Below, piece by piece: positions 1,544-4,798 of a DNA stretch of 5,037 nt. Made by a program: the position numbers and the translations under genes. Position 1 is the first letter of the stretch; every line of letters begins with the position of its first letter. Source of the stretch: a virus (Duplodnaviria; Heunggongvirae; Uroviricota; Caudoviricetes); IMG/VR virus record IMGVR_UViG_2548877009_000019; one strand, 5' to 3'. Under the pieces are notes generated by a model. The model ran no database searches, was not told the DNA's origin, and saw only the letters and a list, made by a program, of their open reading frames with translations.

Positions 1544-1604
1544 CAGACACATCCCAACGCAATAGAACACGAAATAACTCTTTAAGAAACGAAAGGGGGC
1601 AATA

Positions 1605-2036: not shown

Positions 2037-2240
2037 TCAGGCTGGTGGGCAATTACCTTGCTTGTTGGGGCCGTATTGTGCTGCCATTTTCATCCGTTCA
2101 GAACGTGAATATTTTTTTAGAAACTCATCAAGGACAAAAGCGCATGGAGCGAATCTTTCTGATTCATGCTCGAGCGCCATATTTTCGTGCTCTCTGTTCG
2201 TTTTTTGCGATGGTGTATTGGTTGATTCTTTATTGGTCAT
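2037..2240 (-). CDS. Hypothetical small protein (67 aa, starts MTN); paralogous in position and 5' sequence to the 2698-2925 ORF
   Basis: Minus-strand ORF whose start is preceded by the conserved 45-bp leader repeat. Shares ATGACCAA and CACCAATACA with the 2698-2925 ORF at the DNA level. Has a downstream minus-strand terminator. The Shine-Dalgarno is weak (AGG about 9 nt upstream), so translation is uncertain. Confidence 0.3.
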   Translation of the reverse strand: MTNKESTNTPSQKTNREHENMALEHESERFAPCAFVLDEFLKKYSRSERMKMAAQYGPNKQGNCPPA

Positions 2241-2248
2241 TGTGTGTA

Positions 2249-2293
2249 CCTGTAAAGCAATGCGCCGGAGTTCCTCACGCCACGGCGCTGATG
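2249..2293. repeat. 45-bp repeat, copy A (CCTGTAAAGCAATGCGCCGGAGTTCCTCACGCCACGGCGCTGATG), forming the leader of the 2037-2240 sORF
   Basis: Matches copy B at 2934-2979 with 2 mismatches over 45 bp. On the minus strand it contains an inverted repeat GCGCCG-N15-CGGCGC. Flanking homology extends about 50 bp to the right (ATTCTTTGG...). Confidence 0.8.
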
Positions 2294-2297
2294 TTTT

Positions 2298-2402
2298 TTA
2301 TTCTTTGGGTTCAATACCGCGTTGCTGTAATTCTTTTCGGATTATTCGTTTTATCCAAGCTGCTAAAGAGTCATCACCGTCTTGTTGTTGTGCTTTTTCC
2401 AT
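2298..2402 (-). pseudogene. Possible truncated/diverged paralog (34 codons) of the 2983-3162 small basic protein
   Basis: Hand translation of the minus strand gives MEKAQQQDGDDSLAAWIKRIIRKELQQRGIEPKE. Its 3' end and the following DNA are homologous to the 3' end of the 2983-3162 gene (...CCCAAAGAATAA versus ...ACCAAAGAATCAGAATAA). The N-terminal two-thirds is missing. Confidence 0.25.
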
Positions 2403-3264: not shown

Positions 3265-3290
3265 CTTGTTAATGCAAGGTACAGAAAAGA

Positions 3291-3356
3291 CGAAACCCCG
3301 CAGTGCTGGAACACATACGGGCTTCTAACCAACAACGTAAACTAGGAGCCGTTATG
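3291..3356 (+). repeat. Leader module copy 2: hairpin AACCCCG / CGGGCTT (17-nt loop), CTAACCAA, Shine-Dalgarno AGGAG, ATG (3354)
   Basis: About 90% identical to copy 1 over roughly 40 bp. Outer stem positions differ from copy 1 in a way that keeps pairing (A-U pairs replacing G-C pairs) with one internal mismatch. Confidence 0.7.
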
Positions 3357-3537
3357 GTTGCTGTAAATCATATACCACACCTTGTACACACACAAACTGC
3401 CTTTGTGTGGCGTTTTCTGGCACTGAATATCGGAGAAAAAAACCAGTTGATCGCCAGTGTCGAAAATAGCTATGATTCCCGCGCACCTCATAAAACGGGT
3501 GCCGGGATTGGCGTCCTGGGCAAAACTGAAGCGCATA
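3354..3537 (+). other. P3-paralogous short ORF (MVAVNHIPHLVHTQTAFVWRF...) with no in-frame stop before the 3538-3560 terminator; leader peptide or decayed paralog
   Basis: Good Shine-Dalgarno (AGGAG). N-terminal roughly 30 codons are paralogous to the 3723-3911 ORF with several synonymous differences. The frame runs without a stop through the terminator to 3911, so the 202-aa track ORF is unlikely to be one real protein. Confidence 0.3.
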
Positions 3538-3560
3538 ACACGCGCCCCGCGTGTTTTTTT
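3538..3560 (+). terminator. Strong Rho-independent terminator (ACACGCG-CCC-CGCGTGT followed by a T-run)
   Basis: Perfect 7-bp GC-rich stem (3538-3544 and 3548-3554), 3-nt loop, T-tract through 3560. Plus-strand specific. Lies inside the 3303-3911 track ORF and upstream of the small-ORF operon. Confidence 0.75.
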
Positions 3561-3657
3561 GTGCCGCATAGTCACACCTTATCAATGGTGGGCTGTACGG
3601 GGGCGGAGCAATCCGCGCCGGTTTCTTCAGTGTCCGGTTACGCCAACCCTGTACAGT

Positions 3658-3725
3658 CCGCCACCAGCGAAATTGGCGTTTCCGGTGGCGGTTATCTTAA
3701 CCACACTGAGGAGGCTGCCAACATG
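3658..3725 (+). repeat. Leader module copy 3: hairpin CCGCCACC / GGTGGCGG (18-nt loop), TCTTAACCAC, Shine-Dalgarno GAGGAGG, ATG (3723)
   Basis: Perfect 8-bp stem at 3658-3665 and 3684-3691. Same architecture and spacing as copies 1 and 2 but with a completely different stem sequence. Confidence 0.6.
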
Positions 3726-3911
3726 GCTACTATCCCTACCCTTGTACATTCTCAAACCGCCTTTCTCTGGCGCTTTATCATCTTTGGCGCGTCAGAACAT
3801 CAAATCATCCACGTAACCGCCTGGACGGAACGCGAAGCGCGTAGCCGTTGCCCGTCAGGTTGTGTTGCTGTATTTGCCGCCCGTATTCGTCAGGAGGTGC
3901 GCCATGATTAA
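3723..3911 (+). CDS. Hypothetical small protein (62 aa, MATIPTLVHSQTAFLWRF...); first gene of the small-ORF operon
   Basis: Strong Shine-Dalgarno GAGGAGG (3708-3714) with 8-nt spacer. Stop overlaps the next start (ATGATTAA). Paralogous N-terminus to the 3354 ORF with synonymous third-position differences. Confidence 0.6.
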   Translation: MATIPTLVHSQTAFLWRFIIFGASEHQIIHVTAWTEREARSRCPSGCVAVFAARIRQEVRHD

Positions 3912-4116
3912 TCTGTCACTTACTGACCTTAACCGCATTCAGTTTCGTGAGAAATTCACAGGGCAGCTACTGGTCAATGTGGATAAAGGTCGCGTGGTGT
4001 GTAATTACCACTTACCAGATGAAGCAATTGTCGCCACAAGGGAATCATTACAGGAAATCACAAAACGTGCCGGAATGATTAACACGAATATTCAGGGGAT
4101 GCTTTATGCACAATAA
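3904..4116 (+). CDS. Hypothetical small protein (70 aa, MINLSLTDLNRIQFREKF...)
   Basis: ATG at 3904 preceded by GGAGG (3893-3897, 6-nt spacer). Translationally coupled to the genes on both sides. The track's upstream extension to 3862 has no ribosome-binding site. Confidence 0.65.
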   Translation: MINLSLTDLNRIQFREKFTGQLLVNVDKGRVVCNYHLPDEAIVATRESLQEITKRAGMINTNIQGMLYAQ

Positions 4117-4366
4117 AACCACACCGGACGCAGCCGCCGAAGCCATCAAAACGCTGATGCACGCGCTGATTGATATTTCTGTTATCGCGGACAGGGCACA
4201 TAAGCACGCCACCAGCGAAACAGAATATGCCGGGGCTTTCGTTCCTCACTCACTGGCTGTTATGCAATTTAGTGCTGATATGGCACTGAATGAGGCTAAA
4301 ACCATCCTGATTACTGATTGTGAAAATGGGGGGGGGTTATGCTTGATGATCGTTTTAATTCCCTGA
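4106..4366 (+). CDS. Hypothetical small protein (86 aa) whose C-terminus runs through a G9 tract
   Basis: ATG at 4106 preceded by AGGGGA (6-nt spacer); overlaps the upstream stop. The 3' end depends on the G9 tract at 4328-4336, so its true C-terminus is uncertain. Confidence 0.55.
   Translation: MHNKTTPDAAAEAIKTLMHALIDISVIADRAHKHATSETEYAGAFVPHSLAVMQFSADMALNEAKTILITDCENGGGLCLMIVLIP
4328..4336. repeat. Homopolymeric G9 tract at the junction of the 4106 and 4339 ORFs
   Basis: Nine consecutive G counted directly. One extra G would fuse the two ORFs in frame; one fewer would truncate the upstream ORF just before the downstream ATG. Confidence 0.9.
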
Positions 4367-4572
4367 AACAGGAATTTTCCGGCGTTCCTGATGATGCGGC
4401 TGATGCGCTTTCGTCAATGCCAGAACTTATTAGAGCGGCTTTTTTCTTACTTTCCACGAGAGAATATAAATCAACGGGGCTTGATGTACTGAATATCGCC
4501 GCCGATTATGCGGAATATGTGGCAGAGGCTCGTTACAGAAGAAAATTTCCTGAGGATGTAAACCATGCGTGA
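4339..4572 (+). CDS. Hypothetical small protein (77 aa, MLDDRFNSLKQEF...)
   Basis: ATG at 4339 immediately after the G-run, which can act as a Shine-Dalgarno. Stop overlaps the next start (ATGCGTGA). May be the C-terminal part of a fusion with the upstream ORF if the G tract is really G10. Confidence 0.55.
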   Translation: MLDDRFNSLKQEFSGVPDDAADALSSMPELIRAAFFLLSTREYKSTGLDVLNIAADYAEYVAEARYRRKFPEDVNHA

Positions 4573-4798
4573 TATTTACCACGAAACAACAGATCGCGTA
4601 TTTCTTGCACTTTCTCACAGTGAAAATATGATGGAAATATTGCGCATATGGCTTGAAACACTTGGCGACAATGAACGCGACAAACAAAAATCAAGAATTG
4701 CCACGGCATTAATAACGCTTCTTGAGCCTGTAATAAATGAGTTGCAGGAAATAGAGACATTACACGACCAGTATAAAGCGCCCCACACCGGAGAATAA
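4565..4798 (+). CDS. Hypothetical small protein (77 aa, MRDIYHETTDRVF...)
   Basis: ATG at 4565 preceded by GAGGA (4552-4556, 8-nt spacer); 8-nt overlap with the upstream gene. Antisense ORFs in this region (4430-4687, 4533-4844 minus) have no such signals. Confidence 0.6.
   Translation: MRDIYHETTDRVFLALSHSENMMEILRIWLETLGDNERDKQKSRIATALITLLEPVINELQEIETLHDQYKAPHTGE

What the first reader, a model, noticed from the sequence alone, without database searches (positions are those of the whole stretch)
4328..4336. G9 homopolymer positioned so that a single-base slip fuses or splits two genes
With 9 G the 4106 ORF overlaps the 4339 ORF by 28 nt in a different frame. With 10 G the two merge into one in-frame protein of about 163 aa. 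With 8 G the first ORF stops immediately before the second ATG. Long poly-G tracts are classic sites of slipped-strand mispairing (phase variation), transcriptional slippage, and homopolymer sequencing error.
Basis: seen in the sequence. Interest (0 to 1): 0.6.

Follow-up and report, generated by a model that had tools for sequence, protein, structure and literature searches.

The report
Slippery poly-G joins two satellite genes
A run of nine G's sits at the boundary of two small genes of unknown function in an E. coli phage-satellite island; its length differs between otherwise near-identical islands, so the two genes are separate in some strains and fused in others, which is a clear but fairly ordinary case of a slippage-prone repeat.

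Summary
The G9 run at 4328-4336 is real, and the frame arithmetic is essentially right. Two details need correcting: the fused protein is 155 aa, not 163, and with G8 the first ORF overlaps the second by 8 nt rather than stopping before it.

The window is the left third of a capsid-forming PICI (cf-PICI) phage satellite of E. coli.

- **Tract length in relatives.** It is G7 (25 loci), G8 (19), G9 (13), G10 (5) and G11 (2), plus G4 and T-interrupted forms. That needs at least 32 changes among 71 loci. 26 of 47 near-identical pairs differ in tract length.
- **Not one-off errors.** Each allele recurs in tens to thousands of assemblies. The window's exact 86-aa product is on 152 contigs.
- **The two halves are independent genes.** Distant homologs are stand-alone ~75-84-aa proteins. 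The second half starts at this ATG with an ordinary Shine-Dalgarno site.

**Best reading:** replication slippage in a G run that serves both as the glycine tail of gene 1 and as the ribosome-binding site of gene 2. It toggles three tolerated states: 8-nt overlap, 28-nt overlap (this window) and fusion.

Programmed recoding and sequencing error are disfavoured. Adaptive phase variation remains possible but untested. The function of both genes is unknown.

The parts
4328..4336 (+). G9 homopolymer: the hypermutable tract. It encodes the Gly-Gly-Gly end of the upstream gene and lies 2 nt upstream of the downstream gene's ATG, where it is a predicted strong Shine-Dalgarno-like element.
   Evidence: Sequence. 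Expected 0.03 per window. Lengths in relatives are 4, 7, 8, 9, 10 and 11, plus interrupted forms. Predicted anti-SD duplex is -11.6 kcal/mol and saturates at G7.
4106..4366 (+). Upstream gene ('N module'), 86 aa in the G9 state: a 77-aa conserved helical body (4106-4336) followed by a 9-residue out-of-frame tail, LCLMIVLIP.
   Evidence: ORF list. It matches phrog_5146 (N module only, profile length 74) and the first half of phrog_2512. Stand-alone distant homologs of 73-84 aa exist. dN/dS is 0.25. The exact 86-aa protein is on 152 contigs. The AF2 model shows a helical hairpin, H9-37 and H39-73.
4339..4572 (+). Downstream gene ('C module'), 77 aa, with its own ATG.
   Evidence: ORF list. It matches phrog_24341 (C module only, 77/77) and the second half of phrog_2512. 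Distant homologs of 75-77 aa begin exactly at this Met. L091 and L092 have ordinary SD sites, GGAGGG and AGGAGG. The module also occurs behind a different upstream gene in L055-L069. dN/dS is 0.27.
4339..4366 (+). The 28-nt overlap of the two ORFs that is specific to the G9 (and G6, G12) frame.
4339..4346 (+). ATGCTTGA: the start of the C module and, in the G8/G11 frame, the TGA stop of the N module. This is the 8-nt overlap junction (ATGCGTGA in most relatives).
   Evidence: The same ATGCGTGA stop/start overlap is used at the next gene boundary, 4565-4572.
4565..4798 (+). The next small gene of the same overlapping-gene chain (77 aa, phrog_2196). It shows the operon's usual 8-nt stop/start overlap.

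Best explanation
The G run is a genuine, heritable, slippage-prone homopolymer. It lies at the boundary between two independent small genes in the early (alpA-to-rep) operon of a capsid-forming PICI satellite of E. coli.

The run does two jobs. It supplies the glycine codons at the C-terminus of the upstream gene, and it is the G-rich ribosome-binding site of the downstream gene, whose ATG follows 2 nt later.

The upstream gene's stop codon lies beyond the run. Gain or loss of one G during DNA replication therefore rotates its last codons through three frames:
- **G8/G11:** ...GGGYA-stop, with an 8-nt ATGCKTGA overlap. This is the operon's usual junction type and is probably ancestral.
- **G6/G9/G12:** a 9-residue foreign tail and a 28-nt overlap. 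This is the state in the window.
- **G4/G7/G10:** no stop, so the two genes are read as one 153-155-aa protein joined by a Gly linker.

All three states are common, and the length distribution falls smoothly with no 3-nt periodicity. The states therefore appear to be tolerated about equally, probably because both modules are made in every state.

**Shown:** the tract, the frame geometry, recurrent length change among near-identical elements, the independence of the two modules, and purifying selection on both.

**Inferred:** replication slippage as the cause, the SD role of the run, near-neutrality, and G8 as the ancestral frame.
For: **Tract variation**
- Verified in DNA in annotated genomes: G7 (OkiPb01682, O157:H7 PV15-279), G8 (JNE120442, O55:H7 CB9615), G9 (RM6927), G10 (strain 042) and G11 (ST130).
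- Among 71 loci: G7 25, G8 19, G9 13, G10 5, G11 2, G4 3, GGGGGTGG 3, GGGGTGGG 1. Parsimony needs at least 32 allele changes and at least 25 frame changes.
- 26 of 47 pairs with 0.3% or less flank divergence differ in tract length.
- The nearest full-length relative (99.9% over all 5037 nt) has G8.

**Alleles recur in many assemblies**
- Window-type haplotype: G7 on 262 contigs, G8 on 277, G9 on 152, G11 on 56.
- Second haplotype: G6 on 70, G7 on at least 1000, G8 on 912, G9 on 140, G10 on 41.

**The two modules are independent**
- An HMMER scan of 1.84 billion representatives finds only 50 relatives. The distant ones are stand-alone N or C modules, and the C modules start at this Met.
- PHROGs holds separate N-only, C-only and fused families.
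- The N module occurs before a different gene with a non-homopolymeric junction, GGCGGGGGCGATTATGCG, ending ENGGGDYAK*.
- The C module occurs after a different gene with the junction CAGGGGGGTAAACATG.
- Distant C modules have ordinary SD sites and 4- to 8-nt overlaps.

**Other support**
- dN/dS is about 0.25 for both modules in every frame class.
- The AF2 model shows two helical domains joined by a low-confidence linker at the Gly run.
- The G run pairs with the anti-SD at -11.6 kcal/mol.
Against: - No read-level or experimental data exist. The switching rate, protein products and phenotype are all unknown.
- The sample of 71 loci is the best 80 of 181 tblastn hits plus hand-picked genomes. 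It is not corrected for clonal relatedness.
- The NJ tree rests on about 690 nt of mosaic flank, so the parsimony count is approximate.
- The tract looks stable within large clones (O157:H7 G7, O55:H7 G8). Its rate is therefore not extreme, and 'hypermutable' is relative to ordinary sites.
- Near-neutrality is inferred from allele frequencies only. The dN/dS figures cannot be assigned to one state, because states interconvert faster than substitutions accumulate.
- Tracts shorter than G7 are scarce, which hints at some selection on the tract itself.
Confidence: 0.58

Rival explanations
1. Adaptive phase variation (a contingency locus). The tract is maintained because stochastic, reversible switching between fused and separate forms, or between tail variants of the N protein, changes satellite behaviour such as induction, replication or interference with the helper phage. 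This would give a bet-hedging advantage.
For: - There are many independent length changes, and all three frames are at appreciable frequency.
- The tract is kept at 7 G's or more in most lineages although interruption is easy. Only 4 of 71 loci are T-interrupted and 3 of 71 are shortened to G4.
- A second junction involving the same C module also toggles: G6 split versus G5 fused, the latter a 196-aa protein on 131 contigs.
- Other variable G runs exist in related islands.
Against: - No phenotype or function is known for either module. Pfam has no hit, the PHROGs families are of unknown function, and the fold search found no match.
- The downstream gene has its own start, so there is no simple ON/OFF switch.
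- Tract length looks fixed across large clones such as O157:H7 and O55:H7, which argues against very fast switching.
- The length distribution decays monotonically, as expected from mutation alone.
- E. coli has intact mismatch repair and few known repeat-based contingency loci (my own knowledge).
Confidence: 0.2
2. There is one gene, broken here. The functional product is the fused 154/155-aa protein, and G8, G9 and G11 alleles, including this window, are loss-of-function frameshifts (incipient pseudogenes) that persist because the gene is dispensable.
For: - Fused forms are the most numerous class: G7 in 25 of 71 loci, and all 120 top hits of the fused query are full-length at 77-99% identity.
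- PHROGs has a fused family, phrog_2512.
Against: - Distant homologs are stand-alone modules, and fused forms are confined to the close E. coli clade that carries the G run.
- The C module starts at this Met in relatives with different upstream genes and ordinary SD sites.
- The G8 frame reproduces the operon's standard 8-nt overlap and a C-terminus (GGGYA*) like that of the non-homopolymeric relative (GGGDYAK*).
- For the window's haplotype, out-of-frame alleles (485 contigs) outnumber the only in-frame allele looked up, G7 (262 contigs); G10 was not queried.
- Stabilised, T-interrupted alleles exist in the split frame.
- The C module stays under purifying selection in split lineages.
Confidence: 0.1
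3. Programmed recoding. In the G9 state, a -1 ribosomal frameshift on G_GGG_GGG, or insertion of one G by RNA polymerase, yields some fused protein alongside the separate ones.
For: - The downstream ORF is in the -1 frame relative to the upstream ORF.
- G GGG GGG formally fits the X XXY YYZ slippery pattern (sequence).
Against: - There is no stimulatory structure downstream: the fold of 4320-4440 has z = +0.47, and 132 of 200 shuffles fold at least as well.
- The out-of-frame configuration is not conserved. Relatives occupy all three frames, unlike dnaX or IS-element recoding sites.
- In E. coli, all transcriptional insertions within homopolymers were in A/T runs, and the authors conclude that G/C runs are not prone to slippage (PMC5574713).
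Confidence: 0.05
4. Sequencing or assembly error. The true tract in the source of this window is G8 or G10, and G9 is a homopolymer miscall.
For: - Homopolymers of 9 or more are error-prone on several platforms.
- The nearest complete genome (99.9%) has G8, and it also differs from the window by a G3/G4 indel at 3318.
- The window's exact C-module protein is known from only 2 contigs.
Against: - The exact 86-aa product of the G9 allele on this haplotype is on 152 contigs.
- G9 is also present in the complete genome RM6927. Two other near-identical complete genomes (HY220605, JNE141411) have match lengths that imply G9.
- Alleles appear lineage-consistent across genomes from different projects.
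Confidence: 0.06

Closest known systems
Homopolymer contingency loci (poly-G/poly-C tracts in Neisseria, Haemophilus and Campylobacter genes; Bordetella pertussis homopolymeric tracts, PMC1891110; the general survey PMC2831843)
   Same: A mononucleotide run of 7 or more inside or at the edge of coding sequence. Its length differs by one or two bases between close relatives, and each change shifts the reading frame. The presumed cause is slipped-strand mispairing.
   Different: - The host is E. coli with intact mismatch repair, and the locus is on a phage satellite.
- The outcome is not ON/OFF. It is a three-way choice among fusion, an 8-nt overlap and a 28-nt overlap with a foreign tail, and the downstream gene keeps its own start.
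- No switching rate or phenotype is known.
- The gene products are small cytoplasmic-looking helical proteins, not surface or restriction-modification proteins.
Programmed frameshifting or transcriptional slippage sites (dnaX, IS3-family transposases; PMC1088944, PMC5009743)
   Same: Two overlapping ORFs in a -1 relationship, with a slippery run at the junction that could in principle give a fusion product.
   Different: - The frame relationship is not conserved among homologs.
- There is no downstream stimulator.
- The run is G rather than A/T.
- The polymorphism is in the DNA.
Gene fusion and fission ('Rosetta stone') between adjacent, translationally coupled genes
   Same: Two independently occurring modules that are adjacent and overlapping are read as one polypeptide once the stop codon is lost. 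A Gly linker lies between two predicted helical domains.
   Different: Here fusion and fission are recurrent and reversible, driven by a single hypermutable site. They are not rare fixed events.
cf-PICI satellites, prototype EcCIEDL933 (10.1101/2022.09.08.507074; 10.1101/2025.02.11.637232)
   Same: This is the genomic context. The order is int, alpA, small genes, DUF4222 and RepA helicase, then capsid, protease, portal, connectors, HNH, terS and terL, with no tail genes. This is seen in the 99.9% relative.
   Different: The papers read or searched here do not mention these two small genes or the tract. One notes only that the region downstream of alpA is variable and of unknown function.

Membership tests
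Simple-sequence-repeat phase-variable (contingency) locus | A homopolymer or short repeat within or next to coding sequence, long enough to slip (about 7 or more) | tested here: met
   G9 at 4328-4336.
Simple-sequence-repeat phase-variable (contingency) locus | Repeat number differs among closely related strains, with recurrent independent changes | tested here: met
   G4-G11 in DNA and G6/G12 inferred from proteins. At least 32 changes among 71 loci. 26 of 47 near-identical pairs differ.
Simple-sequence-repeat phase-variable (contingency) locus | The length change alters the expressed product | tested here: inconclusive
   At the ORF level it does: three states. Both modules are probably still made in every state, and no protein data exist.
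Simple-sequence-repeat phase-variable (contingency) locus | High-frequency, reversible switching within a clonal population | not testable with these tools
   This needs read pileups or fluctuation assays. Apparent stability within the O157:H7 and O55:H7 clones argues against very high rates at G7-G8.
Simple-sequence-repeat phase-variable (contingency) locus | A selectable phenotype linked to the switch | not testable with these tools
   Function is unknown.
Programmed -1 ribosomal frameshift site | A slippery heptamer X XXY YYZ in the zero frame | tested here: inconclusive
   G GGG GGG fits formally. All-G heptamers are not among the efficient bacterial sites (my own knowledge).
Programmed -1 ribosomal frameshift site | A downstream stimulatory RNA structure, or an upstream SD at the appropriate spacing | tested here: not met
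   The fold of 4320-4440 has z = +0.47.
Programmed -1 ribosomal frameshift site | The two-frame arrangement is conserved among homologs | tested here: not met
   Homologs occupy all three frames.
Programmed transcriptional slippage site | A run of about 9 or more A or T on which RNA polymerase slips | tested here: not met
   The run is G. In E. coli transcriptomes all homopolymer insertions were in A/T runs (PMC5574713).
Capsid-forming PICI (context of the window) | The PICI-type int, alpA and rep module | tested here: met
   Integrase and AlpA are in the window. The RepA helicase lies just downstream in relatives.
Capsid-forming PICI (context of the window) | Its own capsid, protease, portal and head-tail connectors plus HNH, terS and terL, with no tail genes | tested here: met
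   Seen in L090, which is 99.9% identical over the whole window, and in L001/L089. These genes lie outside the window itself.
Capsid-forming PICI (context of the window) | Induction by a helper phage and transfer in its own small capsids with helper tails | not testable with these tools
   This is experimental (10.1101/2022.09.08.507074).

The most novel reading that the evidence does not exclude
The tract is a true contingency locus of a phage satellite. By slipping between frames, it sets whether two early-operon proteins are made as separate chains, as a tailed variant or as a single fused chain. That diversifies how individual cells' islands respond to, or interfere with, helper phages. 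It would be bet-hedging encoded by a mobile element in a mismatch-repair-proficient enterobacterium. The same logic may operate at several G-run ribosome-binding sites of these islands.
Probability: 0.15. Interest if true: 0.65.

Novelty: new member of a known kind. Interest (0 to 1): 0.35.

Why it matters
This is a well-documented natural example, in E. coli, of a homopolymer that repeatedly fuses and splits two adjacent genes. All three reading-frame states are common.

**For annotation.** The 154/155-aa 'hypothetical protein', the 79-, 80- and 86-aa proteins and the 77-aa protein found in thousands of E. coli genomes are one locus in different tract states. PHROGs splits them into three families.

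**For satellite biology.** It marks two uncharacterised early genes of cf-PICIs whose linkage state varies between strains, including between O55:H7 (split) and O157:H7 (fused). These islands also appear to use G-run ribosome-binding sites that are themselves length-variable. If the states differ in function, this would be a rare repeat-based switch in E. coli and the first on a PICI. If they do not, it is a clean case of tolerated, reversible gene fusion and fission.

Tried and rejected
- **Pfam.** A scan of the small ORFs gave no hit for either module.
- **PHROGs.** Only families of unknown function matched.
- **Structure.** The AF2 model of the fused protein has mean pLDDT 66 and pTM 0.45. 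A Foldseek search of the PDB gave no match below E = 2, so no function could be assigned.
- **Paralogy.** A BLAST test of whether the ~77-aa genes of the chain are paralogs found no convincing similarity. The best was N versus C at E = 0.025 over 54 residues.
- **Frameshift stimulator.** The fold downstream of the tract is no more stable than shuffles.
- **Other species.** The genome-contig scan (one genome per species) found only one relative, in Shigella flexneri with G8. The fused or G-run form is therefore essentially confined to E. coli and Shigella.
- **Tract census.** I tried to census all 5426 complete E. coli genomes, but only listed rows can be read. Match lengths are dominated by the over-sampled O157:H7 clone (G7). 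I relied instead on IMG/VR loci and exact-protein contig counts.
- **Literature.** Searches for this tract or these genes in PICI papers found no mention.
- **Rejected reading.** I considered 'a single gene interrupted by a frameshift' as the main explanation and rejected it, because the distant homologs are stand-alone modules.

Full report
**1. The observation**

Bases 4328-4336 are nine consecutive G's in the context GAAAAT-G9-TTATG. In 200 dinucleotide-preserving shuffles of the window, a G9 is expected 0.03 times, and 3 shuffles contained one.

ORF 4106-4366 (86 aa) and ORF 4339-4572 (77 aa) overlap by 28 nt in different frames. I rebuilt the window with 4 to 13 G's:

| Tract length | Result |
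|---|---|
| G4, G7, G10, G13 | one ORF of 153, 154, 155, 156 aa |
| G5, G8, G11 | first ORF ends ...GG(G)YA*, 8-nt overlap (ATGCTTGA) with the second |
| G6, G9, G12 | first ORF ends ...LCLMIVLIP*, 28-nt overlap |

Two details are wrong. The fusion is 155 aa, not about 163. With G8 the first ORF does not stop before the ATG but 8 nt into the second gene.

**2. Context**

- The window carries a tyrosine integrase (1-1230), AlpA (1605-1793) and Ash/Icd-like sequence (3354-3911). A chain of small overlapping ORFs follows.
- The whole window is 99.9% identical to E. coli JNE120442. There it is the left third of an island of roughly 15 kb between roxA and phoQ.
- That island continues with DUF4222, RepA helicase, SSB, PerC, major capsid, prohead protease, portal, head closure, head-tail connector, HNH, terS and terL. 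It has no tail genes.
- RM6927 carries the same organisation at another site, between cspD and clpS.
- This is the gene content that defines capsid-forming PICIs, whose prototype is EcCIEDL933 (10.1101/2022.09.08.507074). A later paper notes only that the region downstream of alpA is variable and of unknown function (10.1101/2025.02.11.637232).

**3. The tract in relatives**

*Annotated genomes.* All of the following were verified in the DNA:

| Genome | Tract | Annotation |
|---|---|---|
| OkiPb01682 | G7 | one 154-aa CDS |
| O157:H7 PV15-279 | G7 | one 154-aa CDS |
| JNE120442 | G8 | 79 + 77 aa |
| O55:H7 CB9615 | G8 | 79 + 77 aa |
| RM6927 | G9 | 86 + 77 aa |
| 042 | G10 | one 155-aa CDS |
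| ST130 | G11 | 80 + 77 aa |

*A wider sample.* 80 IMG/VR loci, the Shigella locus and the loci fetched from complete E. coli genomes gave 71 sequences with complete flanks. The counts are G7 25, G8 19, G9 13, G10 5, G11 2, G4 3, GGGGGTGG 3 and GGGGTGGG 1.

*How often it changed.*
- On a neighbour-joining tree of about 690 nt of flank, the states are scattered. Fitch parsimony needs at least 32 allele changes and at least 25 frame changes.
- The tree is approximate because the flanks are mosaic. A tree-free count says the same: of 47 pairs with 0.3% or less flank divergence, 26 differ in tract length.
- The window differs from its nearest full-length relative by four SNPs, a G3/G4 indel at 3318 and this G9/G8 difference.

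**4. Real alleles or errors?**

Exact-sequence look-ups in the 15-billion-protein collection give these contig counts:

| Haplotype | G6 | G7 | G8 | G9 | G10 | G11 |
|---|---|---|---|---|---|---|
| Window type | – | 262 | 277 | 152 (the window's exact 86-aa product) | – | 56 |
| Second type | 70 | ≥1000 | 912 | 140 | 41 | – |

A G12 form also exists.

Alleles are consistent within clones:
- Six O55:H7 complete genomes all show the G8 match length (one verified in DNA).
- Every O157:H7-labelled genome listed shows the G7 match length (one verified in DNA).

The polymorphism is therefore in the DNA and heritable. The tract is much more mutable than ordinary sites, but it is not so unstable that clones are heterogeneous at G7-G8. 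A miscall in this particular window cannot be excluded without reads, but it is unlikely.

**5. One gene or two?**

- A full HMMER scan of 1.84 billion representatives found only 50 relatives.
- Relatives below about 65% identity are mostly stand-alone proteins of 73-84 aa covering residues 1-78 (for example P0139, P0141, P0148, P0154, P0155, and P0140 ending ENGGGYA).
- The others are stand-alone proteins of 75-77 aa whose residue 1 aligns with Met79 of the fusion (P0130, P0137, P0149, P0168).
- Two of those distant C modules were inspected in their contigs. They follow other genes and have ordinary SD sites: GGAGGG with an 8-nt ATGTATGA overlap, and AGGAGG with an ATGA overlap.
- PHROGs holds three families: fused (phrog_2512, 154 positions), N only (phrog_5146) and C only (phrog_24341).
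- Within E. coli, the N module also occurs before a different gene, with a non-homopolymeric junction GGCGGGGGCGATTATGCG that ends ENGGGDYAK* (L071-L076).
- The C module also occurs behind a different gene, with the junction CAGGGGGGTAAACATGCGTGA (L055-L069). That second junction toggles too: its G5 version is a fused 196-aa protein on 131 contigs.
- The G8 frame gives the same 8-nt stop/start overlap that the operon uses at 4565-4572 (ATGCGTGA). Its C-terminus also resembles the non-homopolymeric relative.

I conclude that these are two independent genes, that the ATG at 4339 is a genuine start, and that the separate, 8-nt-overlap arrangement is probably ancestral. The last point is an inference.

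**6. Selection**

- Nei-Gojobori dN/dS is 0.25 for the N module and 0.27 for the C module. It lies between 0.22 and 0.29 in each frame class, so both are coding.
- These values cannot be tied to a state, because states change faster than substitutions accumulate.
- Counts fall monotonically from G7 to G11, with no excess of in-frame lengths.
- For the window's haplotype, out-of-frame alleles (485 contigs) outnumber the only in-frame allele looked up, G7 (262 contigs).
- Interrupted, stabilised alleles exist in the split frame (GGGGGTGG, GGGGTGGG). Stabilised alleles also exist in the fused frame (G4 in DNA; ENGRGV and ENGWV among the fused proteins).

This pattern fits tolerated, near-neutral switching better than selection for one state. 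Tracts shorter than G7 are scarce. That may reflect the predicted anti-SD pairing, which saturates at G7 (-11.6 to -11.8 kcal/mol, against -5.9 at G4). This last point is speculative.

**7. Recoding**

- In the G9 state the second ORF is in the -1 frame, and G GGG GGG is formally slippery.
- However, 4320-4440 folds no better than shuffles (z = +0.47).
- The frame relationship is not conserved among homologs.
- Transcriptome-wide data for E. coli found homopolymer insertions only in A/T runs (PMC5574713).

I rate programmed frameshifting or transcriptional slippage at about 5%.

**8. Function**

Function is unknown. Pfam has no hit. The AF2 model of the fused form (mean pLDDT 66) shows an N-terminal helical hairpin and a helical C-terminal half. 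They are joined by a low-confidence linker at residues 74-80, the Gly run. Foldseek against the PDB found nothing below E = 2.

**9. Verdict**

The finding is confirmed as a real, recurrently slipping poly-G tract that fuses or splits two genes. The most likely mechanism is replication slippage at a run that doubles as the Gly tail of gene 1 and the ribosome-binding site of gene 2, with all three frame states tolerated (about 0.58).

| Rival | Probability |
|---|---|
| Adaptive phase variation | ~0.20 |
| Broken single gene | ~0.10 |
| Sequencing error in this window | ~0.06 |
| Programmed recoding | ~0.05 |

In kind, this is a new member of the known class of hypermutable homopolymer loci. 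It is notable for its host (E. coli), its carrier (a cf-PICI satellite) and its fuse/split outcome rather than ON/OFF. Interest is moderate to low (0.35).

Noticed in passing
window 2230-2304 vs 2915-2989; 2534-2561 vs 3282-3309; 3371-3416 vs 3731-3776: Three pairs of diverged direct repeats (76-84% identity, spacings of 685, 748 and 360 nt). They indicate that the regulatory region between alpA and the small-gene chain carries a duplicated module: the end of a minus-strand small repressor-like gene, a promoter region and an Icd/Ash-like start. Relatives annotate part of it as a truncated 'ash family' pseudogene.
   Followed up: partly
window 3316-3318 (GGG): The window has G3 where its 99.9% relative JNE120442 has G4. 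This is the only other indel between them, so short G runs elsewhere in the island also vary, or are miscalled.
   Followed up: no
L055-L069 junction (e.g. L055:2990-3017); proteins P0188, P0192: A second junction type places a different upstream gene before the same C module: CAGGGGGGTAAACATGCGTGA. With G6 the genes are separate, with an 8-nt overlap. A G5 version gives a fused 196-aa protein seen on 131 contigs. The fuse/split toggle therefore follows the C module's G-rich ribosome-binding site.
   Followed up: partly
L018:3517, L026:3565 (G7) vs L079:3566 (G9): In islands with an alternative allele of the next small gene, another G run near its 3' end varies. G7 gives a 47-aa protein ending ...GGIYFLLSALC*, and G9 gives a 52-aa protein ending ...GGGFIFCFQHSVNPGY*.
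   Followed up: partly
window 1594-1598 (G5 before the alpA GTG at 1605) vs L049:1534 (G7); also L015:3176, L031:5966 (G7) and L055/L057:5761 (G8): Further G runs in related islands differ in length. One is the Shine-Dalgarno-like run in front of alpA. G-run ribosome-binding sites seem to be a habit of this island family.
   Followed up: no
window 4565-4572, 3904-3911, 4106-4116: Every junction in the small-gene chain is a stop/start overlap of 8-11 nt: ATGATTAA, ATGCACAATAA and ATGCGTGA. The motif ATGCGTGA with flanking ...[H/Y]A* / MRD... recurs at two boundaries. This suggests conserved module-exchange points.
   Followed up: partly
L001 vs L090 (island insertion sites): Near-identical small-gene regions sit in islands integrated at different chromosomal sites, with different integrase and alpA regions: between cspD and clpS in RM6927, and between roxA and phoQ in JNE120442. 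Some genomes carry up to 5-7 matching places. This shows extensive modular recombination among these satellites.
   Followed up: no
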